From Dehalococcoidia bacterium (GTDB taxonomy: Bacteria > Chloroflexota > Dehalococcoidia > GIF9 > UBA5629): a DNA stretch of 64,000 nucleotides. Below, one piece after another: positions 3,221 to 32,821 of this stretch. Within the stretch, counting starts at the first letter, position 1, and each line of letters starts with the position of its first letter. Made by a program: the position numbers and the translations under genes. The notes beneath the pieces were generated by a model. The model searched no databases. It was not told where the DNA came from and saw only the letters and a list, made by a program, of their open reading frames with translations. The stretch spans positions 69,069 to 133,068 of the forward strand of contig DAOTWF010000030.1 in assembly GCA_034435835.1 (NCBI GenBank), written 5' to 3'.

Positions 3221-5410
3221 CTAGACAGTTTTGACTCTAACCGGTGGCAGCACCGGACGGGAAAGCTCGAGCCTGGCATCGCAGCGCAAACAGCGCCTGG
3301 CTTCCGCCCTGGCAGTCATTTCATCGTAGCCTCGCTCCACCTCAGCAAAGCCAGCCAGACGTTTATCCAGGCTGATGCTGGGCATCTCGGGACGCCGCCT
3401 GTCAGCGAAGCCCTCCTCGCTGCCAAAATACGGGTCCGCCTTCTCAAATGGTACCAGCACCTCTTCGATGATGCCGCTCCCACCCAGATATCTATCAATC
3501 GAGCTTGCCGCCTGCCTCCCCTGAGCAATAGCCTCTATCACCGATGCCGGCCCCAGTACCACATCACCACCGGCAAACACACCCTCTATATTGGTCGCCA
3601 GAGTTCTTGTATCCACCTTTATCACATCCCCACGCCCGACCTCCACACCAAACCCCCTAGGAATCTCAGACACCTGCCCGATGCTCGCTATGACGTTGTC
3701 AAACTCCATGACAAACTTGCTACCCTTAATGGGCACCGGCCGGCGCCTGCCGCTGGCATCAGGCTCGCCCAGCTCCATCCTGATGCACTCCAGCTCAAGA
3801 TTGCCATTTTTGACGGCTACCTTTGAAGGTGCTGCCAGGAAGATAATCTCCACCCCCTCGTGCAGAGCTTCCTCCACTTCCTCAGGCGCTGCCGGCATCT
3901 CAGCACGGGTGCGCCGGTAGATAATCGTTACCTCTTTGGCACCAAGACGTAATGCCGTGCGTGAGCAGTCTATAGCTGCATTGCCACCACCTATAACCGC
4001 TATCCTCTCGCCTATCTTCACTGGCTCCCCCAGACTGACCTGCCGCAGGAAAGTGACACCGTCCATAACACCCGCGCTGTCCTCGCCCTCAATACCCAAC
4101 TTCGTCCCCCGATGAGCACCCAGAGCCAGAAACACCGCCTGGTAACCATCCCCAAACAGCCCATCCAGGGACTCCACCCTGGCGTTCGTCCTTATCTCCA
4201 CGCCCACACTCGCAATCTCCTTGATTTCAGCATCAAGAATAGCGCGCGGCAGACGGTAAGCAGGGATACCCACTCGCATCATGCCACCGGGCTGCGGCAG
4301 TGCCTCGAACACCGTAACCTTGTGCCCCAGTTTAGCTAGATAAAAGGCTGCCGTCAGCCCCGCCGGTCCCGAACCGACCACCGCCACCTTCTTCCCGGTC
4401 GGCGGTGCTACTTTAGAATACTGTTTCCACAAACCTCCGTCATTATCAGCAGCAAACCGTTTGAGGAATTTGATGCATATCGGGTCATTGAGCACACCCC
4501 GCCGACACGCCTGCTCACAGGGATGTATACATACCCTCCCCAGAACACCAGGGAAGGGCACTTTCTCTCGTATCACCGCCAGCGCCTCAGAATATTTCCC
4601 CTGCGCAATCAAATAAATGTACCGCGGTATATCAATATGCGCCGGACAGGCATCCCGACAAGGGACAACATAAGCCTCCCAGTTGGGAATATCACGGAAG
4701 CGCGCTTCTCTGTCAATAAGAGCACCGGTGGGACAGACCTCAACACAGCTGAAACAGAACTTGCAGCCCGATTCTTTATGGTCATCGTTCTTCTTAGGCC
4801 CCGCAACCTTATAACCATTCACCTCCACAAAATCAAGCGCCTTTATCCCACGAAGATCATTGCAAGCACTTATACAACGACCACACAAAATGCACAAATT
4901 GTAGTCTAAGTCAAAAAAGGGATTGTCGCGATTTATCGGTAAAAAACGGTACTCGTATAGGATGTCTTGCATCCTGATATCAAAAAAGTCAGACACCAGT
5001 TGTAGCTCACAGCGTCCGTTTTTGGGACAGGTGACACAACGCTCGGTGACGGAGACGCTGCGCAGGCAGATATCGAACGGTTTGCAGCGCTCCCTCCGCC
5101 AGCAGGTAAGGCAGGCGCTGGGATGCTGTGATAGCAGCCTGACCAAAGCCTGACGCTGCCTCTGGCGCAGCTCCGGAGTATCCGTGCGCACGACCATGCC
5201 TTCGTAAACCCTGGTAGTACAGGACAGAACCGGTTCACCCTGCCCCTCGATTTCCACCAGACACAGCCCGCAGTTACCCGAAGGCGGTAGGTCGGGGTGA
5301 GCACAAAGGCTAGGGATGTAGATGCCGGCATCCGTCGCTGCCTGAAATATCGTCATGCCGGCTGAAACGCTGGCCTCACGCCCGTCAATGGTGATGGAGA
5401 ACTCACCCAT
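3221..5410 (-). CDS. Fusion protein: NuoG/HydA-type N-terminal Fe-S domain ([2Fe-2S] plus [4Fe-4S] clusters) joined to a GltD/NfnB-like NAD(P)H:FAD oxidoreductase; putative FDH-associated diaphorase subunit
   Basis: 729 aa. The N-terminus (ITIDGREASVSAGMTIFQAATDAGIYIPSLCAHPDL...CGLCLVEIEG) is paralogous to the FdhA N-terminus. CILCGRCISAC and CKFCFSCVEVCPTGAL are ferredoxin motifs. Then come GltD-type motifs: VPCRDACPAHIDIPRYI, VAVVGSGPAGLTAAFYL (FAD) and IAVIGGGNAAIDCSRTA (NAD(P)H). It starts 4 nt after the fdhA stop. Confidence 0.8.
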   Translation of the reverse strand: MGEFSITIDGREASVSAGMTIFQAATDAGIYIPSLCAHPDLPPSGNCGLCLVEIEGQGEPVLSCTTRVYEGMVVRTDTPELRQRQRQALVRLLSQHPSACLTCWRRERCKPFDICLRSVSVTERCVTCPKNGRCELQLVSDFFDIRMQDILYEYRFLPINRDNPFFDLDYNLCILCGRCISACNDLRGIKALDFVEVNGYKVAGPKKNDDHKESGCKFCFSCVEVCPTGALIDREARFRDIPNWEAYVVPCRDACPAHIDIPRYIYLIAQGKYSEALAVIREKVPFPGVLGRVCIHPCEQACRRGVLNDPICIKFLKRFAADNDGGLWKQYSKVAPPTGKKVAVVGSGPAGLTAAFYLAKLGHKVTVFEALPQPGGMMRVGIPAYRLPRAILDAEIKEIASVGVEIRTNARVESLDGLFGDGYQAVFLALGAHRGTKLGIEGEDSAGVMDGVTFLRQVSLGEPVKIGERIAVIGGGNAAIDCSRTALRLGAKEVTIIYRRTRAEMPAAPEEVEEALHEGVEIIFLAAPSKVAVKNGNLELECIRMELGEPDASGRRRPVPIKGSKFVMEFDNVIASIGQVSEIPRGFGVEVGRGDVIKVDTRTLATNIEGVFAGGDVVLGPASVIEAIAQGRQAASSIDRYLGGSGIIEEVLVPFEKADPYFGSEEGFADRRRPEMPSISLDKRLAGFAEVERGYDEMTARAEARRCLRCDARLELSRPVLPPVRVKTV

Positions 5411-5414
5411 CGGA

Positions 5415-8108
5415 TTAAAGCTTTTCTACCCTGACCGCAGACACCTTGAGTTCTGGAGTCTTGGATACCGGGTCAAAGGCGGTGTTGGTCAAAACATTCA
5501 CCGGGCTCTCGACAAAGTGAAACGTCATATAGACGACCCCGGGTGGCACTCTCTCTGTAACCTTAGCCTTTACCATAACCTCGCCGCGCCTAGATACTAC
5601 CTTCACTCTTTCGCCGTCCTCAATCTTGAGGTCTCTAGCGTCCCTTGGGTTTATCTCCACTGCAGCCTCAGGGTCAATGGCATTCAGCCCGCGCACCCGG
5701 CGCGTCATGGTGCCGGTGTGGTAATGAAAGAGACTGCGTCCGGTGGTGAGTATAAACGGATAGTCCTTGTCCGGCAACTCTGCCGGTGGCTTGTACTCCA
5801 GCGGTGTGAACAGCCCCAGCCCGCGGACAAACCTGCCCACATGCAGTATAGGGGTACCGGGATGGTCTGTGTTCGGACAGGGCCACTGAAGCCCACCGTT
5901 CTCCAGCCGCTCATAATTGATGCCACCGTAGCTGGGCGTCAGCCTGGCTATCTCGTCCATAACCTCCGAGGGATGGTTATAATCAAAACCCTGAGCGCCC
6001 ATTCGTTTTGCTATTTCACAAATGATCCACCAGTCCGGCTTGGAATTGCCCACAGGCTCGATTGCTTTCCTCACCCGTTGCACGCGGCGCTCGGTGTTGG
6101 TGAAGGTACCGTCCTTTTCGGCAAAGCTGGCAGCCGGCAGCACAACATGTGCCAATTGCGCCGTCTCGGTGAGGAACATATCCTGCACTACCAGGAACTC
6201 CAGCCTCTTGAATGCCTCCCTGGTATGGTTGATATCGGGGTCGCTGAGCAGCGGGTTCTCGCCCATGACGAAGGCCGCCTTGAGGCGCCTGTTATAGGCA
6301 GCATCGATCATCTCGCTGAGGGTCAGCCCTGGATTGGGGTTGAGATCGCAACGCCAGGCGATCTCAAACTTGTGGCGTATCTCCGGGTTGTCCACCCTTT
6401 GGTAACCGGTGTAGACGTTAGGCAGGGCACCCATATCGCAGGCACCCTGTACATTGTTCTGCCCACGCAGCGGGTTAACGCCAGAAGAGGGCTTCCCGAT
6501 GTTCCCAGTAAGCATCGCCAAGTTGGCTATCGCCAGCACATTGTCAGTGCCGTGGGTATGCTGGGTTACGCCCATGGTGTAAAGAATTGTCGCCGGCTTA
6601 AAGGTGGCGTACAATCGTGCCGCTTTAGCTATCGCCTCCCGCGGCACCCCTGTTACTTTCTCTACAAATTCCATCTCAAACTTCTTTAACGATTCCTTAA
6701 AAGAATCGAAATTTTCACAATATTCGCTAACGAAGGCTAGGTCGGCAAGCCCTTCATCGTAGATCACCTTCGCCATCCCCATAAGCAAGGCAACATCGCT
6801 ACCAGGAACGTGTCTCAGCCAGACATCGGCACGGTTACAGAGGTCTATCTCCAGAGGGTTAGCCACAATGAGCCGGGCACCATTACGTACCGCTCTTTTG
6901 ACCTCCAGAGCTATAACCGGATGTGTGGCACTGGTATTACTGCCGATGACTAACACGCAAGCTGCATTGCCGATCTCGTTAATAGAGTTAGTCATGGCAC
7001 CGCTGCCAAAAGTGGTAGCCAGACCGGCTACCGTGGGCGCATGTCAGAGACGGGCACAGTGGTCGATATTGTTCGTCCCCATGACGGCACGGGTGAATTT
7101 CTGTGCCAGATAGTTTTCTTCGTTGGTGCACCTTGCTGAAGCGATAAAGGCAAACTCTTCACTTTTGTGCTTGCCCAGGACCTCAGCAACAAAACCCAGT
7201 GCCTCCTCCCAGCTCGTCTCCACAAGCTTGCCATCCTTCCTTATCAGCGGGTTGCTCAGACGCTCGGGGTGATGGACAAACTCGACAATGCCAAAACGTC
7301 CCTTAACACAAGCCTGTCCTTTGTTAACCGTATTCTCACCATAAACAGGTACCGAACGCACCACCCTCTCCGCTTTTACCTCCAGCCCCAACTGACAACC
7401 CACACCGCAATAAGGACATATTGTCGGCACTGTTCGGTCCGACAAGCCAAGCCATTTGCCCTCTGTGTCAAGGAGAGCACCAGTAGGACAGACATCAACG
7501 CAGGCACCACAAAACTGACAACCGGAGTTTTGCAGGGTCTTATCGAAAGCGGTCCCCACTAGCGCCTTGCTGCCCCGATAAATAAAGGCAATAGCCCCCG
7601 CACCCCTCACCTCCTGGCATACCCTTACACAACGCCCACAGAGGACACAAAGATTATAGTCACGGTCGAAAAATGGGCTGTCACGGAGAACAGGAAGCTC
7701 CTTGAGGATAGGCGGAAGAGTGACCTCCTCCACCCCAATCCGGGATGCAACCTTCTGCAGCTCGCAGCGCAGGTTCTTGGCACAGGTAACGCATTGCTTA
7801 GGATGTTCCGCCAGAATCAACTCAAATATGTTCTTCCGCAGCTCCCGAAGCTCAGGGGTGTCCGTCCTGACCACCATCCCATCGGTCACCGGCGTGGTAC
7901 AGGCAGTGGGAAAGCCACGCATATTCTCAATTTCCACAAGACAGAGACGACAGGCACCGTAGGGGCTCAGACTCGGATGATAGCAAAGCGTCGGTATGTG
8001 CACGCCAGCCTGCTTAGCTGCCTCAAGTACGGTACAGCCGTCTTTCACCTGCACCGTCCGACCATCTATGCTCACCGTCACCACTTTAGCTCTCTCTTCA
8101 ACAACCAT
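5415..8108 (-). CDS. fdhA: Formate dehydrogenase catalytic subunit (Mo/W-bis-PGD, NuoG-like N-terminal Fe-S domain), selenocysteine-containing; TGA at 7044..7046 decoded as Sec (residue 355 of 897)
   Basis: Track ORFs 7044..8108 and 5415..6995 share one frame, with 16 sense codons between the TGA and the second ORF's ATG. Read-through gives [35 protein letters not shown], the canonical FDH Sec/Cys active-site context. CPYCGVGCQLG is the [4Fe-4S] motif of the molybdopterin domain. The C-terminus (VSKTPELKVSAVRVEKL) is typical of the family. Confidence 0.9.
7014..7032 (-). promoter_or_regulatory. Bacterial SECIS hairpin (apical stem-loop) directing Sec insertion at the UGA at 7044..7046
   Basis: The mRNA reads UGA-CAUGCGCCCAC-GGUAGCC-GGUCU-GGCUACC. 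An 11-nt spacer precedes 7 perfect base pairs, and the loop contains GGUC. As I recall, the E. coli fdhF SECIS has the same spacing and loop. Confidence 0.75.
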
Positions 8109-8131
8109 GGCAGACCTCTATCCTCACTATA

Positions 8132-10057
8132 TCAATCCTGTGCACCCTTCCCCGCTTTCTGCACCGGCACCGGCTCAGAAGGAACCTCAATGCGCTCACC
8201 AGACACCTTCGCCACCGCCGAAAAGCGCGCCGGACACACATCCAGACAGGTGCCACACTTTATACATTTGTCCTGCTCTATTATGTGTACCAGCCGCTTG
8301 CCACCTTTGATAGCTTCCACCGGACAGTTGCGCATGCATATCATGCACCCCTGACATTTATCCGGTAGAATATAGAAGACTATCAGATCTTTGCACACCA
8401 GGGCCGGACAGCGTCTTTCTTTTATATGCGCCTCATATTCGCCACGGAAATAACGCAGCGTGGTCAGCACCGGGTTCGGTGCCGTCTGTCCCAGCCCGCA
8501 GAGCGACCCCTGCTTCACCGTCATGGCGATCCTCTCCAGTTGGTCAATGTCATCAGGCTTTCCCTGCCCCTCGACAATGCGCTTGAGAATGTCCAGCATC
8601 TGCCTGGTGCCCACACGACAGGGCGGGCATTTGCCGCAGGACTCCGCCTGCGTGAAGGCTAGAAAATATTTGGTCAGGTCTACCATACAGGTGTCCTCAT
8701 CAGCCACTATCATCCCACCAGACCCCATGATGGAGCCAGCCGCAGTCAGCGATTCGTAGTCCACAGGAGAATCAAGCAGCGATGCCGGTAGACAGCCACC
8801 AGAAGGACCACCAGTCTGAACCGCCTTGAACTGCTTCCCTTTGAGGATGCCACCACCAATATCGTAGATGATCTGCCGCAAGGTAATGCCCAGCGGCACC
8901 TCGATAAGACCGGTCATCTCCACCTTGCCCACCAGAGCAAAGGTCTTCGTGCCCTTGCTCCGCTCAGTACCATACTGCGCATACCAGTCGGCCCCCTTCT
9001 GCAGAATCAGAGCCGCACTAGCCCAGGTCTCCACGTTGTTGATATTCGTCGGCTTGCCCCACAGACCGGATATCGCAGGGAACGGCGGCCTGGGCCTGGG
9101 CATACCGCGCTTTCCTTCAATGGATGCCAGCAGGGCAGTCTCTTCACCACAGACAAACGCCCCAGCACCCTCTTTTATCTTTATGTGCAGGCTGAACCCA
9201 GAACCAAGAATGTCGTCCCCTATCAACCCGTACTCTTCCATCTGCTTCAGCGCCAGCCGCAGCCTTTCCAGCGCCAGGGGATACTCGGCACGACAATAGA
9301 TATAACCTCGGTTCGCCCCGATGGCATAGGCACCGATGACCATGCCCTCAAGCACTGAATGAGGATCGCCCTCCAGAAGAGAACGATTCATGAACGCCCC
9401 GGGATCACCTTCATCAGCATTACAGATAATGTATTTCTCTACCCCAGGAGCACGCCTGCAAAACTCCCACTTCTGCCCTGTGGGAAACCCTGCACCTCCT
9501 CTCCCCCGTAAACCAGACTTCTTTATCTCCTCGATGATCGCCTCAGGCGACATGCTCAGCGCCTTCACCAGCCCACTGTAGCCACCATTGGCAATATAAT
9601 GGTCGATGTTCTCCGGGTCGATAAGCCCACAGTTGCGCAGCACCAGCCTCACCTGCGGCTTGAGCACCGGAAGGTCAAAAAGGGCAGGAATGCCGTCAAC
9701 CTTGCCATCCCCTATGTAGCCAAGCGCTAAATCGGAGCGGGGATTATCGTGTACCAGATAGTCAGAGAGCAGTTGCTTTACGGTCTCCGGCTGTACACCG
9801 CCATAAATAATCTGAGGCCTGCCAGGCTTGATGATCCCAACCATCGGCTCAGCATAGCATAAGCCCATACACCCCACCTGGATCACTATGGCTTCTAAGC
9901 CGTGCTGCACCAACACCTCATCTATCGCCCTGAGCACACCATCAGCTCCAGCCGCCCTGCCACACGTGCCAGCACCCACCAGGATCCGGGGCTTGGGGCT
10001 CCCCTCTAGCTTCTCCCACTCGGCAAAAGCACGCTTCTGGATCTCAGCAAAGGTCAT
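8132..10057 (-). CDS. NuoF/HydB-like NAD(H)-binding FMN Fe-S subunit with an N-terminal thioredoxin-like [2Fe-2S] domain and C-terminal 2x[4Fe-4S]
   Basis: 641 aa. Motifs seen: GRGGAGFPTGQKWEF (FMN/NADH site), ESCGKCPPCRVG (N3 cluster), and C-terminal CQGCMICMRNCP and CIKCGTCLDVCP. The N-terminal region reads ILVGAGTCGRAAG...VGCMGLCYAEP. Confidence 0.85.
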   Translation of the reverse strand: MTFAEIQKRAFAEWEKLEGSPKPRILVGAGTCGRAAGADGVLRAIDEVLVQHGLEAIVIQVGCMGLCYAEPMVGIIKPGRPQIIYGGVQPETVKQLLSDYLVHDNPRSDLALGYIGDGKVDGIPALFDLPVLKPQVRLVLRNCGLIDPENIDHYIANGGYSGLVKALSMSPEAIIEEIKKSGLRGRGGAGFPTGQKWEFCRRAPGVEKYIICNADEGDPGAFMNRSLLEGDPHSVLEGMVIGAYAIGANRGYIYCRAEYPLALERLRLALKQMEEYGLIGDDILGSGFSLHIKIKEGAGAFVCGEETALLASIEGKRGMPRPRPPFPAISGLWGKPTNINNVETWASAALILQKGADWYAQYGTERSKGTKTFALVGKVEMTGLIEVPLGITLRQIIYDIGGGILKGKQFKAVQTGGPSGGCLPASLLDSPVDYESLTAAGSIMGSGGMIVADEDTCMVDLTKYFLAFTQAESCGKCPPCRVGTRQMLDILKRIVEGQGKPDDIDQLERIAMTVKQGSLCGLGQTAPNPVLTTLRYFRGEYEAHIKERRCPALVCKDLIVFYILPDKCQGCMICMRNCPVEAIKGGKRLVHIIEQDKCIKCGTCLDVCPARFSAVAKVSGERIEVPSEPVPVQKAGKGAQD

Positions 10058-10059
10058 CT

Positions 10060-10509
10060 TTACTTGTATCGCTCCAACATTTCTTTAGCCCCGGACACCG
10101 TCATCCTACCGTAGACATCTTTATCGACGACCACCACCGGTGCCAGAGCACAGGAACCAAAACAGGCCACCCTCTCAAGACTGAAGCGGTTGTCATCGGT
10201 TGTCCCGCCAGACTCCACCCCCAGCTCCCGCTTCATCTCATCGAAGATACGTTCACCGCCCCTGACATGGCATGCCGTCCCCAGACAGACCTTGATGTTG
10301 TGTCTGCCACGGCGGGTAAAGTAAAACTGGGCATAAAAAGAGGCGACCCCGAACACCTCGCTCTCCGATATACGGCACAACGTGGCTATCCGGGAGACCG
10401 CCTCCTCAGAAAGGTAGCCGTACTTTTCCTGTACTTTTTGCAAAATCGGAATTAACGCACCCTTCTCACCACCGTACTCTGCCACAATTTGGGCTAGTTC
10501 ATCAGACAA
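10060..10509 (-). CDS. NuoE/HydC-like [2Fe-2S] thioredoxin-fold subunit
   Basis: 149 aa with a TTG start and a GGAGAG RBS. KVCLGTACHVRG and ERVACFGSCALAPVVVVD carry the NuoE cluster cysteines. The stop lies 2 nt before the nuoF-like start. Confidence 0.85.
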   Translation of the reverse strand: MSDELAQIVAEYGGEKGALIPILQKVQEKYGYLSEEAVSRIATLCRISESEVFGVASFYAQFYFTRRGRHNIKVCLGTACHVRGGERIFDEMKRELGVESGGTTDDNRFSLERVACFGSCALAPVVVVDKDVYGRMTVSGAKEMLERYK

Positions 10510-13331: not shown

Positions 13332-14363
13332 CTAGGCTACGGATGCTGGCCAGGGCTTCTCGCCTAAAGCGATGCGACATAGGTCGGTGATGAATATTTT
13401 GGGTAAGCTAAACTGCGAGCTGGGGCGACGCAACACCCGGTCACAGACCGGGCAACAGGTCACGATAGCTTCAGCACCAGAGGCGATGGCGTCCTCAAAG
13501 TTCTTCTTCTGCATCTCGATGGCGAGCTCCCTATTGGTATAGATGATGGGTGCACTGCAACACACCGCCTCCAGCCGCTCATACTTTCTCGGCAGCCTCT
13601 CAACACCCACCAGCTCAAATATCTCGTCCAGGAAGCTGTCATACTCGGGAATCCATCTGGTGGCGCAGTTTGCCTGGAAGGCTATCTTCCTGCCTATCCT
13701 CGTAATTCTGTCCCTGTGCTCCCTAAGATAACTACACAGGTACTCATAGAGGTGCATGTACTTGAAGGAGACTTTGAACCCGTACTCCTTGGCTTTCACA
13801 TGGGCAAGCACAAAACCTTCGTTGTGCATGTAGACCACTTCTTTGCCGAAGCTGGCAAGCCTGTCAAGGACGAGCCGACCATACCTTTCCACAAAGCTCT
13901 CACCGCCCATGTGCACACACCCGCAGAGGGACATAAATTCAGCACCCCTGACCACCGTCATACCCCTGAACAACTGGCTCTCCAGCGTACCCTCTGGAAA
14001 CTCATCAAACCGAAAGGAATCGAGTGACAACAGCGGCTTATCCGGCTCTCCGGGTATCACCTGCCTCGGCTCACCCCGCCCTTCAAGCCCCCTGGCTAGA
14101 GTTTCCAGCATCGGCCTGCCCACAGCCACTATCGGGGCGGTGCCCAGCTTCTCCTGCATCCTGAAGATGAGGTTGACCGGGTCAGCTCCCGTGGGACAAT
14201 AGCTGCTGCATGCCAGGCAGGTGATGCACCTGTGCAGAATCTCAGCATCCTTGCCCTCCATCAACAGCCTCAGCTCCACCACCGCCCTCTCCTTATCAAA
14301 GTCCACATACCGGCACTTCACCAGACAGTCCCCGCAAAGGTCGCATTTAGAAGCATCCCACAT
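13332..14363 (-). CDS. Fe-S oxidoreductase, 2x[4Fe-4S] ferredoxin-like N-terminus plus one CCG (HdrB/HdrD/GlpC-type) cysteine-rich domain
   Basis: 343 aa. Motifs are CDLCGDCLVKC and CITCLACSSYCP, then the CCG-type pattern C-x34-CC-x(33-34)-CxxC (NCATRW...AVCCSAP...TCCPVC). The stop lies 6 nt before the ATPase start. Confidence 0.7.
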   Translation of the reverse strand: MWDASKCDLCGDCLVKCRYVDFDKERAVVELRLLMEGKDAEILHRCITCLACSSYCPTGADPVNLIFRMQEKLGTAPIVAVGRPMLETLARGLEGRGEPRQVIPGEPDKPLLSLDSFRFDEFPEGTLESQLFRGMTVVRGAEFMSLCGCVHMGGESFVERYGRLVLDRLASFGKEVVYMHNEGFVLAHVKAKEYGFKVSFKYMHLYEYLCSYLREHRDRITRIGRKIAFQANCATRWIPEYDSFLDEIFELVGVERLPRKYERLEAVCCSAPIIYTNRELAIEMQKKNFEDAIASGAEAIVTCCPVCDRVLRRPSSQFSLPKIFITDLCRIALGEKPWPASVA

Positions 14364-14664
14364 TATCGTTCTCGCGTAAGTCCTTCACACGAAACGCAAT
14401 TATACGACCTGTCCCCCTTGCCGTCAAAACGCCGACACCGCAAACCAGTCTGCCCTGTACCAAAGTCTCCCTTTTTCTTTACCCCCCACTTTGACAGACA
14501 TCTTCCCACCGGCACCTGATAGTGCTATACTTCCTGCAGCCAGGACAAAGAAGGGGGATCGGGCTAACCAGACCAGCCGGAAGCTATACCCAAACCAAAA
14601 TCAGCGCATTTTAACACTTGCGCGGTGGACCGACGGTCAGACCGACTTCAGGGGGTGAGCAGAA

Positions 14665-15714
14665 ATGACCGGGCTTAAATTCGACAAAACGAAGTGCACA
14701 AACTGCAAAGGTGTCTTCTGTCTCACCAAATGCCAGTATATCCAACTGAGCCAAGATGCCGCCAGAAAAGAGTGGCAGAAAATAGTCGACGGCGAAGACT
14801 CATTTGTCCTGGAAGCCTGCACCACCTGCTATGCCTGTGAGGAATACTGTCCCTTTAACAACCACCCCTTCTATCTCATCGTCGAGCGACAGGAGCAAAA
14901 AGGCATACTGCCAGCGCCCAGGCCCATAATCACCATGTGGATCAACCAGTGCCAGCCCGTGGGCAGGTTTACCGTGGGGAGGGTCGGGGAAAGGATGCTG
15001 TCCTACTGCTTTCTTCCCCATTTCAATACGCTGGTGAAGGGCAAGCTCTTCGACGACACCGCCGGCGCTGTGGTCTTCGGCCAGGAATTTTTCTGCAACG
15101 CCGTCTACCTGCACTACGCCCGGACATCGGTGATAAAAGAAAGGCTGCCCCAGATAGTGGCAAACATCGGTAGGCTGGGCGTAAAGGAGCTCGTCTGCCT
15201 ACACGATGAATGCTACGGCACCTTCGCCTCCCTAGCACCAGCCTACGGCATCGAGGTACCGTTCAAGCCTGTCCACTATTTCGAGTACCTCTACAGCAGG
15301 CTGAAAGAGCTCGGCAAGGCGGTGAAAAAGCTAAATGTCAAAGCTGCCTACCAGCGCAACTGCTCCTCCCACCTCGCCCCGGAGACAGACAGACTCGTCG
15401 ATGATATTTTCAGCCTCATCGGGGTGGAAAGGGCTAAAAGGGAATACGACAGAGATAATGCACTGTGCTGCGCCGAAATCGTCCGCATGGGAAAGGGTCC
15501 TGCTCTCGCAGACGATATACAGAGAAAAAATATAGATGACATGGTGAAAGCCAGTTCTGAATATTGCGTGTTCAACTGCCCCGCTTGCTGGGATGCCCTG
15601 GCAGACAGAGTCGCCAGAAGGGGGATAAAGCCAATACATGTCATAGACCTCTGCAAGCTGGCGATAGGCGAATCCCAGTCTCTCAAGCTTCCCGAATTAG
15701 CAGTGGAGGTATAA
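14665..15714 (+). CDS. Fe-S oxidoreductase, paralogue of 13332..14363 (ferredoxin-like N-terminus plus one CCG domain)
   Basis: 349 aa with the same architecture: CTNCKGVFCLTKC (spacing altered), CTTCYACEEYCP, then NCSSHL...ALCCAEIV...FNCPACW. A GGGGGTGA RBS precedes the ATG. Confidence 0.7.
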   Translation: MTGLKFDKTKCTNCKGVFCLTKCQYIQLSQDAARKEWQKIVDGEDSFVLEACTTCYACEEYCPFNNHPFYLIVERQEQKGILPAPRPIITMWINQCQPVGRFTVGRVGERMLSYCFLPHFNTLVKGKLFDDTAGAVVFGQEFFCNAVYLHYARTSVIKERLPQIVANIGRLGVKELVCLHDECYGTFASLAPAYGIEVPFKPVHYFEYLYSRLKELGKAVKKLNVKAAYQRNCSSHLAPETDRLVDDIFSLIGVERAKREYDRDNALCCAEIVRMGKGPALADDIQRKNIDDMVKASSEYCVFNCPACWDALADRVARRGIKPIHVIDLCKLAIGESQSLKLPELAVEV

Positions 15715-15718
15715 TGCC

Positions 15719-17110
15719 TTGGTAACCACAAATGCTATCTACGAATCCCTGGTCAAAATCGTGGGCAAGAGCTATGTCTCTGCCAGCAAAGAAGAAAGGT
15801 ACTTCTATGCCCGGGACGGTGGCTTGATGCCGCCGCATGAGCCCGATTTCGTGGTGCTGCCTCGGACGACGGAAGAGGTGCAGGAGATAGTCAGGCTGGC
15901 AAACAGAGAAAAGATACCGATAGTCCCCGCCGGCGCCGGGCTGGCGCTCACCGGCCTGGTGATACCACAGAAGGGCGGCATCGTGGTGGACATGAAGCGG
16001 ATGGACAAGATTATAGAGGTAAACGAGAAAGCCAGGTATGTAATCGTGGAGGGGGGCACCACCCAGGGGACACTGAAAAGCTATTTGCAGAAGCACTACC
16101 CCCACCTGAGGCACAGTATACCGGATGCGCCCCCATCAGCCACAGTGGTCGCCAATGCGGTAATACACGGGCAGGGGCGTCTGGCACACCAGCACGGCTT
16201 CAACTCCGACATGGTCTCCGGGCTGGAGGTGGTGCTGCCCACCGGAGAAGTCTGTCGCATCGGTTCCTGTTCTGTATCACCATATTGGTTCTCAAAAGGA
16301 CCGCCTTTGCCTGACCTCAGCGGGCTCTTTCTCGGCTGGTTCGGTACAACAGGCATCATTACCAAGCTCGGCTTGAAGCTCTATCCTTGCAAGAAGCTGA
16401 GAGACGTGATGGTGCTGCTCACAGATAAAGTTGAGCTTGTGCCAGACATCATGCTCAGGCTCAGCCACACTGAGATGGTGGAGGATGTGGTCGTCTCAGC
16501 CCAGCCCCTGCCCCTCAGGTTCAAAGGCACCTTCTGGATCATGACCTACATCACTGGCGATTCGGACGAAGAGCTTGAGTTCAAGCGCAAGATGGTCTGG
16601 GACTCAGTCTGGGACTATTTCCAGAGCCGCGATGTCGGCTTCATCAGCACCTCGCCGGAGGGAAAGGCACCACTCCTATCCATGCCTTCCAAGGACACCA
16701 CCAGGTTCGCCGATGTGGCTAAGGGCGGCGGCTTCCAGTACGCCGGACCGATAACCCCCATCGAAAAGTTCCCCGCCTTCATCCGTAAGCTCGAGGAGGT
16801 GGCTGCCAAATACAATGTATTCTATGGCTCCACCACCCGCCTCATCGGCTCGGGGCACTGTATGATGTTCAGCTTTTCTTTCTCCTTCAACCGTGCAAAT
16901 CCGGACGAGATGGCAAGGGCTAAGAAGGCCCTGGACGAATGCAGCAGGTTCGCCCTCGAGGAAGGGGCTGTTCTCTGGAAACCGGACGTGGATGAGCAGC
17001 GGATGATAATGGAAAGGATGGACCCGAACACGCTCGAACTGATGAAAAGGATAAAACAGCTCCTCGACCCCAACGGCATTATGAACCCGGGCAACTGGGA
17101 GATGAGATGA
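15719..17110 (+). CDS. FAD-linked oxidase (GlcD / D-2-hydroxyacid dehydrogenase, PCMH-type FAD-binding family)
   Basis: 463 aa with a TTG start. The N-terminus is typical of the family (VVLPRTTEEVQEIVRLANREKIPIVPAGAGLALTG). The C-terminal tail (LLDPNGIMNPGN) is characteristic of GlcD-like proteins. Confidence 0.8.
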   Translation: MVTTNAIYESLVKIVGKSYVSASKEERYFYARDGGLMPPHEPDFVVLPRTTEEVQEIVRLANREKIPIVPAGAGLALTGLVIPQKGGIVVDMKRMDKIIEVNEKARYVIVEGGTTQGTLKSYLQKHYPHLRHSIPDAPPSATVVANAVIHGQGRLAHQHGFNSDMVSGLEVVLPTGEVCRIGSCSVSPYWFSKGPPLPDLSGLFLGWFGTTGIITKLGLKLYPCKKLRDVMVLLTDKVELVPDIMLRLSHTEMVEDVVVSAQPLPLRFKGTFWIMTYITGDSDEELEFKRKMVWDSVWDYFQSRDVGFISTSPEGKAPLLSMPSKDTTRFADVAKGGGFQYAGPITPIEKFPAFIRKLEEVAAKYNVFYGSTTRLIGSGHCMMFSFSFSFNRANPDEMARAKKALDECSRFALEEGAVLWKPDVDEQRMIMERMDPNTLELMKRIKQLLDPNGIMNPGNWEMR

Positions 17111-18267
17111 TGCAGCAGAAATATGTCAGCCAGATACACAGATGCTTCCGCTGCGGTTACTGCAAGTTCCCCACCGACTACTCCTCGTTCAACTGCCCCC
17201 CATACTGTAAGTTCAGGTTCGAGACCTATTCCACCGGCGGCCGTCTGTGGCTGATCTACGCCTGGCTGAAGGGCGAGATCGAGTGGTCGGAGCACCTTGC
17301 AGAAATACTATACACCTGCACCACTTGCAGAAACTGTGCCGAGCAGTGCCCCATGAAGTTCGCCCCCGATATCATCGACTGGATAATCGGAGCCAGGAGT
17401 GACATGGTGGAGAAGGGCAGGATCCCACCGAGGGTGGCACGCTTTTTTGAAGCCGTGCAGGGGTACGGCAACCCGTTCAAGCTGCTAAGGGGCGATAGAG
17501 CTAGCTGGACTAACGGGACGAAGTCATATTCCCCCGGCGACGAATTTCTGTTGTACATCGGATGTCTGGGCTCATACGACGAAAACGGACAGAAGATGGC
17601 AAAAAGCCTGGCTAGCGTACTTGAGGCGTCGGGGGTGTCCTTTGGTATCTTGGGCAACGACGAGGAGTGCTGCGGCAACGAGGTCTACATGCTCGGCGAG
17701 ATGGGGCTCTTCCAGAACATTGCCGCGAGGAACATCCAGAAATTCAAGGAGCTCGGCGTAAGGAAGATAGTCACACTTTGCCCCCACGGCTACAATGCCT
17801 TGAAGAACAATTACCCCAAACTGGGTGGGGAGTTCGAGGTATATCACTATACCGAATTGCTGGCAGAACTGATCAGACAGAAAAAGCTGAAGCTTCGCCA
17901 AATCAGGACAAAAATCACCTATCAGGATCCCTGCTTTCTGGGCCGCTACAACAACATCTACGATGAGCCGCGCCTGGTGCTGCAGAGCATCCCCGGTGTC
18001 GAGCTGGTGGAGATGGAACGCAGTAGAAAGGATGCCTTCTGCTGCGGCGGTGGCAGCGGCAACTTCGTCATGGACCTGCTAGCAGGCGATGAAAACAGCC
18101 CGGCACGGGTCAGGGGAAAGGAGGCTTATGCCACTGGCGCCGAGGTGCTTGCAGTCGCCTGCCCAGGCTGCATGACCATGCTTAACGACGCGGTGAAGGC
18201 AGAAAACCTGGAAATAAAGCTGACCGTCAAGGATGTTTCACAGCTCTTGGCGGAATCGCTATCTTGA
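17107..18267 (+). CDS. GlcF/HdrD-like Fe-S subunit with two CCG domains
   Basis: 386 aa. An ATGA overlap joins it to the FAD oxidase. Motifs: CFRCGYCKF...CPP, CTTCRNCAEQCP, two CCG boxes (EECCGNE, FCCGGGSG) and ACPGCMTM. Confidence 0.75.
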   Translation: MMQQKYVSQIHRCFRCGYCKFPTDYSSFNCPPYCKFRFETYSTGGRLWLIYAWLKGEIEWSEHLAEILYTCTTCRNCAEQCPMKFAPDIIDWIIGARSDMVEKGRIPPRVARFFEAVQGYGNPFKLLRGDRASWTNGTKSYSPGDEFLLYIGCLGSYDENGQKMAKSLASVLEASGVSFGILGNDEECCGNEVYMLGEMGLFQNIAARNIQKFKELGVRKIVTLCPHGYNALKNNYPKLGGEFEVYHYTELLAELIRQKKLKLRQIRTKITYQDPCFLGRYNNIYDEPRLVLQSIPGVELVEMERSRKDAFCCGGGSGNFVMDLLAGDENSPARVRGKEAYATGAEVLAVACPGCMTMLNDAVKAENLEIKLTVKDVSQLLAESLS

Positions 18268-29536: not shown

Positions 29537-29623
29537 GGAGAGGTGTCCGAGTGGTTTATGGAGCCGCTCTCGAAAAGCGGTAGGTGATGAGCCTCGTGGG
29601 TTCGAATCCCACCCTCTCCGCCA
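29537..29623 (+). tRNA. tRNA-Ser (anticodon CGA), class II with a long variable arm and encoded CCA
   Basis: Manual fold. Acceptor GGAGAGG/CCTCTCC. D stem TCC/GGA. Anticodon stem CCGCT/AGCGG with loop CT-CGA-AA. Variable arm AGGT-GATGA-GCCT. T arm GTGGG-TTCGAAT-CCCAC. Discriminator G, then CCA. Confidence 0.9.
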
Positions 29624-29630
29624 GCTTCAT

Positions 29631-29721
<91 letters not shown>

Positions 29722-29739: not shown

Positions 29740-31137
29740 TTAGACCGAGTATAAAGTGTCCAGATAACCGTCCAGCAGTTCAGCCACCACCTTCCTGTCA
29801 GGAACTGTGGCAGCCATACCATATATGGGCGCCATGCCGCCTTCCTGCTGGGGGTTGCTCTTCACATGCTCAACGGCCGCTCTCAGGTCTTCCATAAAGC
29901 GCCCCATTACGCCCTTCTGGGCATGCCTGAGAGTGACACATATGTGCACGCTGGGTGGCTTCTGTAAGGGGTTGAGACTCCAGCCCCTGCCGCTCATAAA
30001 GTCCATGACCCGGTAGATGTCCACTGTGTCCGAAGCAAAAGCTATGTTCCACAGAGGCTTACCCAGGATATACAGTTCGGGTATACTGGCGATCCCTGCC
30101 TTTATCTCCTCCGCCGCCAGCAGAATTTTCCTGGCAGCCTCGAGGTAACCGCTCTCGCCCATGCTCACCATCGCCGCCCAGCAGGACGCTATCAAGCCAC
30201 CGGGACGGCTACCAGCGATGGTCGGCGAAACATATAAGCCACCGGACCAGTCAGTAACCTTAAAATACTGATAGCGCCGTAGCTCCCGTCCGCGATAGAG
30301 GATGACCGATGTCCCCTTCGGGGCATAGCCATATTTGTGGGTATCCACGGAAATGGAGGTGACCCCGCGCAGCCTGAAGTCAAAAGGCGGCACCTCATAG
30401 CCGAGCCTCTCCGCCCAGGGAAGCAAAAAGCCGCCGAGACAGGCATCAACATGAAAGCCGCTGCCTTTCTCCCTCGCCAGCTCGGACAGCTCCTCTATGG
30501 GGTCGATGACTCCGTGGGGGAAAGAGGGCGCAGAGCCGACTATCACTATGGTGTTTTTGGTGACCGCCTCTCTCATCGCCGCCACATCCGCCCTGAAATC
30601 TGGACCTACGGGGACACGCACGATAGAGATATTGAAGTACTGGGCAGCCTTGTCAAAAGCGGCGTGAGCGCTGGAAGGTACCACCATCTCCGGTGCCATA
30701 ATACCCTTTCTTGCTCTTGCCCAATCGCGGTAGGTCTTCATAGCAAGCAAGATGCTCTCGGTGCCCCCGGAGGTGACCGTGCCGCATATCTCCACGGCAT
30801 CTCCGCCGTCTCCGACAGCGCCTGCGCCCAGCATATTTGCCGTCATGGAGACTATCTCCGCCTCGTACTTCACCGTGCTGGGCCAGAGGTCGGCATGGAG
30901 GGGATTGCTCTGTGAGTTTATGGCATAAGCCCGGCAGAGAAAATCTATGTACTCCTCGTCGCCGTGATATACCGCCCCCGAGGCAAACCCCCTCTGCCAC
31001 CTCGCCCTCTCCAGAGAGGCCAGCTCTTCCATCTCCTTCAATATTTCTGTCCTGCTGCGTCCCACCTCGGGTAGACGGGTATAAGTCGGTACCGTACCCT
31101 TATACGGTTTTAGCCTGCTCTCCAGCTCCTCTACCAT
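29740..31137 (-). CDS. PLP-dependent sphingosine-1-phosphate-lyase-like enzyme (group II decarboxylase/SPL family), soluble form
   Basis: 465 aa. [21 protein letters not shown] (PLP-Lys box), [21 protein letters not shown] and [22 protein letters not shown] are near-identical in pattern to eukaryotic SGPL1 as I recall it. There is no N-terminal TM segment. Confidence 0.75.
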
Positions 31138-31159
31138 GTCGTCATCTCCTCCTTTGCCA

Positions 31160-32698
31160 TCAGATAGACTTATTGAACCTATCCCTGTTCAGCCTTCTGT
31201 AGAAGCCACGCAGATTGTGGTACACTTGCTGATAAGCCCGAAAAAGGGTATTGTAAACCTCCCGGTTTTCCGTCTGCGGCTGAAAGACGCTGTCCACCCT
31301 GACCACCTTCTTGAGCGATGCAAAATCAGGGTAGATGCCCAGTCCCACCCCAGCCACCAGCGCCGCCCCCACCGCACCGGCCTCCTGAGCGTTAGACACT
31401 GCCTCAACCCTGCGCCCGGTAACATCTGCCAGGATCTGCATCCACGGTCTGCTTCGGGCACCCCCACCGATCACCCGCAGTACTGGCAAAGGGAATTTGA
31501 ACTTTTTCTCCACAATCTCCACCAGCCACCTTATGTTATAAGCCACACCCTCATAGACAGCACGCAACATATCCCTGCGTGTGTGTTCACCACTCAGGTT
31601 GAAGAAAGCAGCCCGCACATAACAGTCGTCCACAGGCGCCCGCTCACCATAAATCCACGGAGTGAACAACAGGCAATTCGAACCCGGCGGCACCTCTGCT
31701 ACCTTTCTGTCCATAAAAGCGTAGACTTCAGGCACACCCAGCTCCGTCTTTTCTTTCTTGTAGACCTCCTCAGCCAGCCACTGGAGACAGGCGCCGGCAG
31801 CCTCAGTCTCAGCGATGAGAAACGCCTTGTTAGGGTCAGCAGACTGGATTGTCGCCACACCACACTTCCCCGTGGGGGTGCGTTCTGTGGTCACCCCTAC
31901 CCACCCCGAAGTGCCCAGGCAGACGTGTCCGTCCCCTTCCCCAACAGCACCCGAACCGATAAGGGCGCAGGGGGCGTCCCCTGCACCGGCGATGACCGGC
32001 GTGCCCTCCAGCAGACCATATTCGCTGGCTGCCGCCGCGGTGAGAACACCCACTTTATCAACAGAACGCACCAGCGGCGGAAACTTCGCCGGGTCAAGCC
32101 CGATATACTTGAACAGACTGCTCAGCCAGACCTTTTTCCTCAAATCTATGCCGAAAACAGAGGCACCGCTCCATTCCATGGCTATATTGCCCGTGCTGCG
32201 GTAGAAAAGGTACCCGGCGACGTCGACGAAACGCGACATAGCATTATACACCTGGGGTTCCTTCTCCTTGAGCCAGAGCAACTTCGGCAGCCCGTCCTTG
32301 CCGCTCAGTGCGGCACCGGCGATCATGGCAAACAGCCCGGCACCACCAAACTTTTTCATTATCTTCTCCGCCTGCTCGCCGGCGCGGTTGTCCATCCAGA
32401 TGATGGCACGGCGCAGCACCTTCCCGCTAGCATCCAGGGGGACGATGTTGATCATCTGGGTGCTGAAGGTGATACAGAGAACATCCCGCGGCGAAACACC
32501 GGTAGTCTCCAGGAGCGCTCTGGTACCCCGTGTCACCGCCCTCCACCAGTCTTCAGGCTCCTGCTCCGCCCAGCCAGGCTTGGGGTAAAAAGCACGGTAA
32601 GGTTCAACTACCCTGCCGCAGACACGCCCGTCAACATCCACCAACACAGCCTTGTCACCGCTGGTGCCCACATCATGGGCAACTATATACTGGCTCAT
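31160..32698 (-). CDS. FGGY-family carbohydrate kinase (xylulokinase/glycerol-kinase-like)
   Basis: I prefer the start at [21 protein letters not shown] (32698), which gives the usual FGGY N-terminus (DxGTS). [15 protein letters not shown] and [18 protein letters not shown] are FGGY signatures. The stop lies 22 nt before the SPL-like start. Confidence 0.8.
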
Positions 32699-32821
32699 CC
32701 CCACCCCCAGAACATTATAGCCCAAAAAATCGCCAGCCACACATGGAAAACCTTTACCGGGATCCACAGCACAGGAACTCTTCGGAAAAGTCTTTTGTCC
32801 GCCCTGTCCTCCTATGTTACA

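What the first reader, a model, noticed from the sequence alone, without database searches (positions are those of the whole stretch)
5415..8108. Selenocysteine formate dehydrogenase hidden as two ORFs, with an fdhF-type SECIS hairpin
Track ORFs 7044..8108 and 5415..6995 are in the same frame. Only a TGA (7044..7046) and 16 sense codons separate them. Reading through gives [35 protein letters not shown], which is the catalytic Sec/Cys position of Mo/W-bis-PGD formate dehydrogenases.

Eleven nt after the UGA, the mRNA can form GGUAGCC-GGUCU-GGCUACC (7014..7032). This is 7 perfect base pairs with GGUC in the loop. As I recall, the E. coli fdhF SECIS has the same geometry. The organism therefore very likely decodes UGA as Sec, and naive gene callers will mis-annotate this gene as two fragments.
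Basis: partly seen in the sequence, partly recalled or inferred. Interest (0 to 1): 0.7.

Follow-up and report, generated by a model that had tools for sequence, protein, structure and literature searches.

The report
Selenocysteine formate dehydrogenase gene with SECIS
The two adjacent reading frames are one formate dehydrogenase gene whose internal UGA almost certainly encodes the catalytic selenocysteine, directed by a conserved RNA hairpin; this is a correct but ordinary example of a well-known recoding system.

Summary
On the minus strand, 8108..5415 is one 897-codon frame with a single TGA at 7046..7044. A perfect 7-bp hairpin with loop GGUCU lies at 7032..7014, 11 nt after the TGA.

The TGA aligns with Sec140 of E. 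coli FdhH. His141, Arg333, Lys44 and the four FeS cysteines are conserved. The joined protein passes the NCBIfam Fdh-alpha model.

It is not a nonsense allele. The three closest relatives (Dehalococcoidia/Chloroflexota MAGs, 85-89% identity) and 34 more distant homologs carry TGA at the same codon. dN/dS is 0.03-0.06 on both sides of the TGA, although synonymous sites are near saturation.

The hairpin follows the TGA. Its mean energy is -10.6 kcal/mol in 38 TGA genes and -2.8 in 38 Cys-codon copies. Synonymous sites are frozen only in the TGA genes. The window itself carries a compensatory G-C to A-U change.

TGA is also the commonest ordinary stop here, so the code is not reassigned.

Public gene calls do split the gene into 354-aa and 526-aa fragments.

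selA, selB, selD and tRNA-Sec are not in the window, and the rest of the genome could not be reached.

Selenocysteine formate dehydrogenases are already reported in Dehalococcoidia, so interest is low.

The parts
5415..8108 (-). Single gene for a formate dehydrogenase alpha subunit (FdhA), 897 aa including Sec355. Domains: [2Fe-2S] + NuoG-type FeS + 2x[4Fe-4S] + Mo/W-bis-PGD + dinucleotide-binding.
   Evidence: Translation. Pfam domains. TIGR01591 Fdh-alpha 869 bits, cutoff 666. Best solved relatives are 9wxb_B and 6tg9_A FdsA.
7044..7046 (-). In-frame UGA read as selenocysteine (codon 355), the Mo/W ligand position.
   Evidence: Aligns with E. coli FdhH Sec140. TGA at the same codon in L001-L003 and 34 further loci; TGC/TGT in 38 copies.
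7014..7032 (-). SECIS apical hairpin: 5' arm 7032..7026 (GGUAGCC), loop 7025..7021 (GGUCU), 3' arm 7020..7014 (GGCUACC). It overlaps the codons for T-V-A-G-L-A-T.
   Evidence: Fold. Conservation and covariation in TGA genes against Cys genes. Meets the bacterial SECIS consensus criteria quoted in PMC13188914.
6991..7049 (-). Stretch matched by Rfam SECIS_3 (RF01989). Sub-threshold.
   Evidence: 46.7 bits against a gathering score of 63. Cys-type homologs also score 22-43 bits, so the match is largely coding conservation.
8132..10057 (-). NuoF/HydB-like flavoprotein subunit (FMN, NADH site, C-terminal 2x[4Fe-4S]), immediately upstream in the same operon.
   Evidence: Pfam. Best solved relatives are B subunits of bifurcating enzymes: 7t2r_B, 9n5u_B, 9bov_B, 8oh5_B. 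Adjacent to FdhA in nearly all 75 homologous loci.
10060..10509 (-). NuoE/HydC-like [2Fe-2S] subunit, first gene of the operon.
   Evidence: PF01257. NCBIfam NuoE / FDH gamma. Conserved next to NuoF-FdhA.
3221..5410 (-). 729-aa protein directly downstream (5-nt gap): NuoG/HydA-type FeS N-terminus fused to a GltD/NfnB-like NADPH-FAD module. Candidate NADP(H)-binding partner of the FDH.
   Evidence: Pfam. NCBIfam. Best solved relatives are StnC residues 103-568 and NfnA. Same gene follows FdhA in L001-L003.

Best explanation
The region 8108..5415 (minus strand) is one gene for the catalytic alpha subunit of a cytoplasmic, NAD(P)-linked Mo- or W-bis-PGD formate dehydrogenase. Its metal-ligand residue is selenocysteine, encoded by UGA at codon 355.

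Proposed mechanism. During translation, the hairpin that begins 11 nt downstream (7-bp stem, loop GGUCU, with G23/U24 in the same register as in E. coli fdhF) is bound by the C-terminal winged-helix domains of the elongation factor SelB. SelB delivers Sec-tRNA(Sec) to the UGA in competition with release factor 2. The ribosome then continues through the remaining 542 codons.

What is shown:
- a single frame;
- a catalytic-site alignment;
- a TGA conserved across deep divergence;
- equal purifying selection on both sides of the TGA;
- an RNA-level constraint specific to genes that carry TGA.

What is inferred:
- the presence of selA, selB, selD and selC elsewhere in the genome;
- actual selenium incorporation.

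The enzyme is encoded with NuoE-like and NuoF-like subunits and a GltD-like NADPH module. It probably exchanges electrons between formate/CO2 and pyridine nucleotides, and possibly ferredoxin.
For: Sequence and frame.

FDH identity.

Catalytic site: Sec140/His141/Arg333/Lys44 and the four FeS-cluster cysteines of E. coli FdhH align to U355/H356/R548/K269 and C231/C234/C238/C267.

Conserved TGA: the genome-collection scan found TGA at the homologous codon in the three nearest relatives (85-89% aa identity, Dehalococcoidia/Chloroflexota MAGs) and in 37 of 75 copies found overall.

Selection: dN/dS is 0.03-0.06 for both the 354 codons before and the 542 codons after the TGA, with dS of 1-2.9.

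Hairpin:
- The 19-nt hairpin energy averages -10.6 kcal/mol in TGA genes and -2.8 in Cys-codon genes.
- The inner six pairs are 92-100% paired in TGA genes. In Cys genes the whole stem is only 50% paired.
- There are compensatory changes: the window's own G-C to A-U, and four loci with C-G to U-A.
- The third position of the Gly codon is T in 38/38 TGA genes and 13/37 Cys genes (p = 1e-10).
- The state tracks the hairpin across at least 12 Sec/Cys switches on a rough NJ tree.

Genetic code: TGA ends 19 of 40 long ORFs in the window, so it is a normal stop there.

Literature:
- The hairpin meets the bacterial SECIS criteria: 3-9 nt loop, 4-16 bp stem, G in the first two loop positions, 16-37 nt from UGA to the loop (PMC13188914).
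- It also meets '6-8 bp stem, conserved loop G about 20 nt after UGA' (PMC4605307).
- Sec machinery and Sec-FDH are documented in the class Dehalococcoidia (PMC4918011) and in other Chloroflexi (PMC4959059 and PMC5736913).
Against: No tRNA-Sec, selA, selB or selD was found in the 64-kb window or in about 1.3 Mb of related loci. The rest of the source genome could not be read.

The Rfam SECIS_3 match is below the gathering score (46.7 against 63). Cys-type homologs also hit that model.

Taken alone, the hairpin's thermodynamic z-score in context is unremarkable.

The bulged U that I recall as important for E. coli SelB binding is absent.

There are no expression, proteomic or selenium-labelling data.
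Confidence: 0.93

Rival explanations
1. The TGA is a genuine nonsense mutation, or a sequencing or assembly error, in a formerly Cys-type FDH. The gene would then be a pseudogene, or would yield only a truncated 354-aa product.
For: The highest-scoring full-length database proteins (62-76% identity) nearly all carry Cys at this position: 109 of the 110 that the motif search could read. No Sec machinery is seen in the window.
Against: That Cys excess is an artefact, because gene callers split the Sec forms. At the DNA level the three nearest relatives and 34 others have TGA at this codon. dN/dS is 0.03-0.06 downstream of the TGA, with dS above 1. The exact fragment sequences occur on several independent public contigs. 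The hairpin and the frozen synonymous sites are specific to TGA carriers.
Confidence: 0.01
2. The gene is naturally split. Translation stops at the TGA and restarts at ATG 6995, giving an FeS/N-terminal polypeptide and a separate molybdopterin polypeptide that assemble.
For: An ATG lies 16 codons after the TGA, and gene callers emit two ORFs.
Against: The break falls inside the PF00384 molybdopterin domain (residues 283-702) and would delete the catalytic residue itself. The 16 codons between the TGA and the ATG are conserved as protein ([16 protein letters not shown]) in all homologs. That ATG is the conserved internal Met of the GAM motif. There is no Shine-Dalgarno-like sequence before it (GGCAGCGGTGCC).
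Confidence: 0.02
3. The UGA is read through, but not as selenocysteine. Possibilities are a reassigned code (UGA = Trp or Gly), near-cognate suppression, or SelB/SECIS-dependent insertion of Cys from a Sec-like tRNA.
For: Read-through is strongly implied, but the inserted residue was not observed. Sec machinery genes were not located.
Against: TGA is the commonest ordinary stop in the window (19 of 40 long ORFs), which excludes global reassignment. Trp or Gly at the metal-ligand position would inactivate the enzyme, contrary to the strong purifying selection. The position is Cys or TGA in all 75 homologous copies found in the loci. The conserved SelB-type hairpin points to the Sec pathway.
Confidence: 0.04

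Closest known systems
E. coli formate dehydrogenase H (fdhF, Sec140) and its SECIS
   Same: The catalytic core is homologous: 44% identity over 669 aligned residues. Sec, His, Arg and Lys and the [4Fe-4S] cysteines are at the same positions. The UGA is followed by a hairpin that overlaps the V-A-G-L codons, with GGUC at nt 22-25 from the U of UGA.
   Different: FdhH lacks the ~225-aa NuoG-like FeS N-terminus and partners with hydrogenase 3, not with NuoE/NuoF-like subunits. The E. coli SECIS has a 4-nt loop and a bulged U. Its predicted fold has a lower helix that starts a few nt after the UGA. The window has a 5-nt loop, no bulge and no supported lower helix.
NAD-dependent FdsABG-type formate dehydrogenases (Rhodobacter capsulatus FdsA, PDB 6tg9/6tga; 9wxb)
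   Same: These are the best solved-structure matches over the full length (residues 9-894, E = 1e-239 to 1e-244). They have the same NuoG-like N-terminus plus Mo-bis-PGD core, and NuoF-like and NuoE-like partner subunits.
   Different: As I recall (not checked here), those enzymes use Cys, not Sec. The NuoF-like subunit here is larger (641 aa, with two extra [4Fe-4S] motifs) and is closer to the B subunits of bifurcating enzymes than to FdsB.
Moorella thermoacetica NADP-dependent FdhAB (Sec-containing), and the Sec-FDHs reported in Dehalogenimonas alkenigignens and in Chloroflexi single-cell genomes
   Same: These are cytoplasmic, Sec-containing, pyridine-nucleotide-linked FDH alpha subunits. 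Sec-FDH with a SECIS, together with selC, selB and Sec synthesis genes, is documented in the class Dehalococcoidia (PMC4918011; PMC5736913; PMC4959059). From memory, the Moorella fdhA SECIS also has a 6-bp stem and a GGUCU loop, and its beta subunit is GltD-like. Neither point was verified here.
   Different: This is a different species and operon. Here NuoE-like and NuoF-like genes precede fdhA, and the GltD-like partner carries a NuoG-type FeS N-terminus.
Rfam SECIS_3 (RF01989)
   Same: The only Rfam family that matches. It aligns over all 59 model positions, starting 3 nt before the UGA.
   Different: The score is 46.7 bits, below the gathering score of 63. The model's lower-stem pairs are not formed. 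All 11 TGA relatives tested also fall below threshold at 37-54 bits. Cys-type homologs score 22-46 bits.
Stn and NfnABC transhydrogenases and HydABC-type bifurcating enzymes
   Same: The NuoE-like and NuoF-like subunits are the closest solved relatives of the StnA/B, NfnB and HydB/C subunits. The 729-aa protein matches the GltD-like NADPH module of StnC and NfnA. StnC itself contains an FDH-like domain (PMC10482914).
   Different: In Stn the FDH-like domain is catalytically dead and is fused to the GltD module. Here the FDH is a separate, apparently active Sec enzyme, and the domain order of the GltD protein differs.

Membership tests
Mo/W-bis-PGD formate dehydrogenase alpha subunit (TIGR01591 Fdh-alpha) | Whole-protein score above the curated equivalog cutoff | tested here: met
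   869 bits against a cutoff of 666.25, over residues 229-894.
Mo/W-bis-PGD formate dehydrogenase alpha subunit (TIGR01591 Fdh-alpha) | Sec/Cys metal ligand followed by His, the catalytic Arg, and the N-terminal [4Fe-4S] Cys motif with Lys | tested here: met
   U355, H356, R548, C231/C234/C238/C267 and K269 align to E. coli FdhH U140, H141, R333, C8/C11/C15/C42 and K44.
Mo/W-bis-PGD formate dehydrogenase alpha subunit (TIGR01591 Fdh-alpha) | Formate oxidation / CO2 reduction activity, and metal identity (Mo or W) | not testable with these tools
   Needs enzymology and metal analysis.
Bacterial selenoprotein gene | In-frame UGA aligned with Cys in homologs (Sec/Cys pair) | tested here: met
   37 TGA against 38 TGC/TGT at the same codon across the 75 copies found in 80 loci. 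109 of the 110 top full-length database proteins that could be read carry Cys.
Bacterial selenoprotein gene | UGA conserved in orthologs, with the downstream part under purifying selection | tested here: met
   L001-L003 all have TGA. dN/dS is 0.03-0.06 on both sides.
Bacterial selenoprotein gene | Genome encodes selA, selB, selD and tRNA-Sec | not testable with these tools
   Absent from the 64-kb window and from all fetched loci. The source contig (210,497 bp) and the rest of the genome could not be fetched. The machinery is documented in a cultured member of the class (PMC4918011).
Bacterial selenoprotein gene | Selenium incorporated at the UGA position | not testable with these tools
   Needs 75Se labelling or mass spectrometry.
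Bacterial SECIS consensus (bSECISearch model, as summarised in PMC13188914) | Apical loop of 3-9 nt and upper stem of 4-16 bp | tested here: met
   5-nt loop and 7-bp stem.
Bacterial SECIS consensus (bSECISearch model, as summarised in PMC13188914) | A G in the first two loop positions, and 16-37 nt between the UGA and the apical loop | tested here: met
   The loop is GGUCU. 18 nt separate the UGA from the loop (11-nt spacer plus the 7-nt arm).
Bacterial SECIS consensus (bSECISearch model, as summarised in PMC13188914) | Structure maintained by evolution (covariation; loss when Sec is replaced by Cys) | tested here: met
   The inner six pairs are 92-100% paired in TGA genes. In Cys genes the whole stem is only 50% paired. 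Compensatory changes occur at two inner pairs. Synonymous sites are frozen only in TGA genes. Three Cys genes sister to Sec clades keep a fossil hairpin.
E. coli fdhF-type SECIS | GGUC loop with G23/U24 at a fixed distance from the UGA (hairpin starts 11 nt after the UGA) | tested here: met
   GGUC is at nt 22-25 from the U of UGA in both the window and MG1655 fdhF. The importance of G23/U24 and of the 11-nt spacing is from my own knowledge of the E. coli literature, not from a paper read here.
E. coli fdhF-type SECIS | Bulged U in the 5' arm, and a lower helix between the UGA and the apical hairpin | tested here: not met
   The window stem is a perfect 7 bp without a bulge. The lower-stem pairs of the Rfam alignment are non-canonical.
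Rfam SECIS_3 (RF01989) | Score at or above the gathering threshold (63 bits) | tested here: not met
   46.7 bits, and no hit at gathering. The relatives tested score 37-54 bits. Cys controls score 22-46 bits.

The most novel reading that the evidence does not exclude
The Sec-FDH is not a simple NAD-dependent enzyme. It may be the catalytic module of a flavin-based electron-bifurcating complex of the HydBC/Stn/NfnABC kind, built from the NuoE-like and NuoF-like subunits and the GltD-like NADPH module encoded around it. In effect this would be an Stn-type transhydrogenase in which the FDH-like domain (dead in Sporomusa StnC) is a live selenoenzyme. It would couple formate/CO2 to NAD(H), NADP(H) and possibly ferredoxin in uncultured Dehalococcoidia.

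Repeated linkage of a GltD-like gene to the NuoE-NuoF-FdhA unit, in different gene orders across phyla, is consistent with this. It does not prove a single complex.
Probability: 0.25. Interest if true: 0.5.

Novelty: new member of a known kind. Interest (0 to 1): 0.18.

Why it matters
Practically, this is an annotation fix. Public gene calls hold this enzyme as two fragments of 354 and 526 aa. Metabolic reconstructions of this Dehalococcoidia population could therefore score formate dehydrogenase as broken or absent, and its selenium requirement would be missed.

Biologically, it adds one more lineage to the known pattern of frequent Sec/Cys switching in this FDH subfamily. There are at least 12 switches among 76 sequences. 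Fossil SECIS hairpins remain in the nearest Cys forms, which suggests recent Sec-to-Cys replacement.

It does not change what is known about selenocysteine decoding.

Tried and rejected
- Looking up the window's own FDH-region proteins to reach the source contig failed. The NuoF-like protein, the N-terminal fragment and the 729-aa protein were all 'not on record', although the exact sequences exist in the protein collection.
- The thiolase and ATPase look-ups found a near-identical MAG contig (GCA_964594975.1, CAZQND010000004.1; 99.99% nt identity). That contig ends at window position ~10,022, just before the NuoF-like and FDH genes. It gave no access to sel genes.
- tblastn with E. coli SelA, SelB and SelD against the window and all fetched loci gave only one weak SelB hit over its N-terminal ~210 residues, in L040.
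- ARAGORN on the window and 37 TGA loci found no tRNA-Sec.
- Rfam at gathering thresholds found only two tRNA-Ser genes. I first took the sub-threshold SECIS_3 hit as support. I then discounted it after the control on Cys-type homologs.
- The protein search ranked only full-length Cys forms on top. I rejected this as evidence for 'relatives carry Cys', because Sec forms are split by gene callers and cannot score as high. The DNA-level scan corrected it.
- PMC5424206 was checked for UGA-to-Cys recoding in Dehalococcoidia and had nothing relevant.
- I did not use the remaining large protein searches to hunt SelB. Any available seed (E. coli) would return only its own close relatives.
Full report
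**1. The observation**

On the minus strand, the ORFs 8108..7044 and 6995..5415 share one frame. A TGA at 7046..7044 and 16 sense codons separate them. Read-through gives an 897-residue protein with ...NNIDHCARL-(TGA)[25 protein letters not shown]....

The inverted repeat GGTAGCC / GGCTACC with loop GGTCT is at 7032..7014, exactly 11 nt after the TGA. It is the predicted minimum-energy and centroid fold.

Taken alone the hairpin is only moderately unusual. For the 19-mer, z = -3.1 and 0 of 200 shuffles fold as well. In a 41-nt context, z = -1.25. Perfect 7-bp hairpins occur about 6.4e-4 per nt in this window, and about 1% of all TGA triplets have one at SECIS distance. The case therefore rests on comparison with other genes, not on thermodynamics.

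**2. What the gene is**

Pfam finds Fer2_4, a NuoG-type 4Fe-4S, two ferredoxin-type clusters, Molybdop_Fe4S4, Molybdopterin and Molydop_binding. The TGA lies inside the Molybdopterin domain, not at a domain border. The joined protein passes the NCBIfam equivalog model TIGR01591 (Fdh-alpha) at 869 bits against a cutoff of 666. Its best solved relatives are full-length NAD-dependent FDH alpha subunits (9wxb_B, 6tg9_A), then HDCR FdhF and E. coli FdhH.

I fetched fdhF from E. coli MG1655 and aligned it. The window's TGA falls on Sec140. His141, Arg333, Lys44 and the four cysteines of the [4Fe-4S] cluster are all conserved.

**3. Nonsense allele or conserved recoding?**

A protein search returned only full-length hits (62-76% identity), and 109 of the 110 whose active-site motif could be read carry Cys at this position. 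This is a ranking artefact. Gene callers split Sec-type genes, so those cannot score as high.

A DNA-level scan of one genome per species gave 80 loci. The three closest are Dehalococcoidia/Chloroflexota MAGs at 89, 87 and 85% identity, and all have TGA at the same codon. Overall, 37 copies have TGA and 38 have TGC/TGT.

Between the window and these three relatives, synonymous sites are near saturation (dS 1-2.9). dN/dS is nevertheless 0.03-0.06 both for the 354 codons before the TGA and for the 542 after it. A stop that truly ended translation could not coexist with that. TGA is also the commonest ordinary stop in the window (19 of 40 long ORFs), so the code is not reassigned.

**4. The hairpin as a SECIS**

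- **Stability.** Among 38 TGA-bearing genes (window plus 37), the 19-nt segment folds at a mean of -10.6 kcal/mol. Among 38 Cys-codon copies the mean is -2.8.
- **Pairing.** In the TGA set the six inner pairs are 92-100% paired. In the Cys set the whole stem is only 50% paired, and the two pairs furthest from the loop are broken in about 80-90% of sequences.
- **Compensatory changes.** The window carries the only G-C to A-U double change at pair 21:33. Four loci carry C-G to U-A at the loop-closing pair.
- **Why the register alone proves little.** The 5' arm and the loop encode V-A-G-L in all homologs, so protein homology forces their position. The RNA-level signal is in the synonymous sites. 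The Gly codon is GGT in 38/38 TGA genes and 13/37 Cys genes (p = 1e-10). The Val third position is G in 37/38 against a mixture in the Cys set.
- **The 3' arm.** The two codons that form it encode A-T in most TGA genes and A/V-Q in most Cys genes.
- **Phylogeny.** On a rough NJ tree there are at least 12 Sec/Cys switches, and hairpin stability follows the state.
- **Exceptions.** These are informative. The nearest Cys homolog (L089 = P0001, 76% identity), L008 and L011 keep an intact hairpin after TGC. They sit beside Sec clades, which fits recent Sec-to-Cys replacement.

The hairpin meets the published bacterial SECIS criteria: 3-9 nt loop, 4-16 bp stem, G in the first two loop positions, 16-37 nt from the UGA to the loop (PMC13188914). 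It also meets '6-8 bp stem, conserved loop G about 20 nt after the UGA' (PMC4605307).

**5. Comparison with E. coli and Rfam**

In MG1655 fdhF the loop GGUC lies at nt 22-25 counted from the U of UGA, the same register as here. E. coli has a 4-nt loop and a bulged U, and its predicted fold has a lower helix that starts a few nt after the UGA. The window has a 5-nt loop, no bulge and no supported lower helix.

Rfam SECIS_3 is the only family that matches, at 46.7 bits against a gathering score of 63. It does not appear at gathering thresholds. Eleven TGA relatives score 37-54 bits. Cys-type homologs also score 22-43 bits, and the fossil L089 scores 46. Most of that score therefore reflects conserved coding sequence. 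I do not count it as independent evidence.

**6. Sec machinery**

The window has no tRNA-Sec; it has only two tRNA-Ser genes. It has no selA, selB or selD among its ORFs and no second selenoprotein candidate. Nothing was found in the fetched loci either.

The window is 99.99% identical to part of NCBI MAG contig CAZQND010000004.1 (GCA_964594975.1). That contig ends at window position ~10,022, just before the NuoF-like and FDH genes. The exact FDH fragments sit on another NCBI contig of 210,497 bp that I could not fetch.

At the level of the class, Dehalogenimonas alkenigignens has selC, a Sec-specific elongation factor, Sec synthesis genes, a Sec-containing SelD and a Sec-FDH with a SECIS (PMC4918011). 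Sec-FDHs and Sec translation factors are also reported in Chloroflexi single-cell genomes (PMC4959059; PMC5736913).

**7. Annotation**

The exact 354-aa and 526-aa fragments exist as two separate proteins in the public collection. This confirms the prediction that gene callers split the gene.

**8. Context**

The operon on the minus strand reads:

| Gene | Coordinates |
|---|---|
| NuoE-like | 10509..10060 |
| NuoF/HydB-like | 10057..8132 |
| FdhA(Sec) | 8108..5415 |
| 729-aa protein | 5410..3221 |

The 729-aa protein has a NuoG/HydA-type FeS N-terminus and a GltD/NfnB-like NADPH module. The solved relatives of the NuoF-like subunit are the B subunits of bifurcating hydrogenases, NfnABC and Stn. 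The GltD part matches StnC and NfnA.

NuoE-NuoF-FdhA is conserved in almost all 75 homologous loci, Sec and Cys alike. A GltD-like gene is linked in about a third of them, in varying positions. StnC of Sporomusa carries a dead FDH-like domain (PMC10482914). Here a live Sec-FDH sits among the same modules. This is the basis of the novel reading, which I rate at about 25%.

**9. Verdict**

The one untested link is the sel genes. The kind of thing is textbook and already reported in this bacterial class, so it is a new member of a known kind. Its value is mainly for annotation. Interest 0.18.

Noticed in passing
window 3221..10509 (minus strand): Four-gene unit: NuoE-like, NuoF/HydB-like, FdhA(Sec), and a 729-aa fusion of a NuoG-type FeS N-terminus with a GltD/NfnB-like NADPH module. 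The subunits resemble Stn and NfnABC bifurcating enzymes, but with a catalytically intact FDH. A GltD-like gene is linked to NuoE-NuoF-FdhA in about a third of 75 homologous loci, in varying gene orders.
   Followed up: partly
L089 7438..7496; also L008 and L011 (Cys-codon homologs): The nearest Cys-type homologs keep a perfect SECIS-like hairpin (GGTGGCC-GGTCT-GGCCGCC, -13 kcal/mol) after TGC. This is a fossil SECIS and implies recent Sec-to-Cys replacement. In L089 the FDH is followed by separate NfnA-like and NfnB-like genes instead of the fused 729-aa protein.
   Followed up: partly
L016, L021, L028, L048, L065, L073 (Cys-type FDH loci): Rfam SECIS_3 (RF01989) matches Cys-codon homologs at 22-43 bits with E-values down to 1e-6. 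Sub-threshold hits of this model largely report conserved FDH coding sequence rather than a SECIS.
   Followed up: yes
window ~10,022 (between the NuoE-like and NuoF-like genes): A near-identical public MAG contig (GCA_964594975.1, CAZQND010000004.1; 99.99% nt identity over 16 kb) ends here. In that assembly the NuoF-like and FDH genes lie beyond the contig end. I found no cause for the assembly break.
   Followed up: no
L043 6398 (TGA) and downstream: One TGA-bearing homolog has only a weak hairpin at the usual position (-2.6 kcal/mol; the 3' arm encodes V-Q as in Cys forms). It could use another structure, or it could be a recent Cys-to-TGA change or a pseudogene.
   Followed up: no
window 31136..33967 (+): A 943-aa ORF whose DprA match covers only residues ~592-924. 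The ~590-aa N-terminal extension is unexplained, and it overlaps a 535-aa ORF on the opposite strand (31160..32767). The start may be over-extended, or two genes may be merged.
   Followed up: no
window 29537..29720 (+): Two tandem tRNA-Ser genes (anticodons CGA and GGA), 7 nt apart. Both are ordinary tRNA-Ser, not tRNA-Sec.
   Followed up: yes
window 13332..18267: Divergent cluster of CCG-domain and 4Fe-4S proteins with an FAD-linked oxidase (GlcD/GlcF- or HdrD-like), next to a P-type cation ATPase. An in-frame TGA at 14656..14658 sits 2 codons before the ATG of ORF 14665..15714. I judged it to be ordinary intergenic sequence.
   Followed up: no
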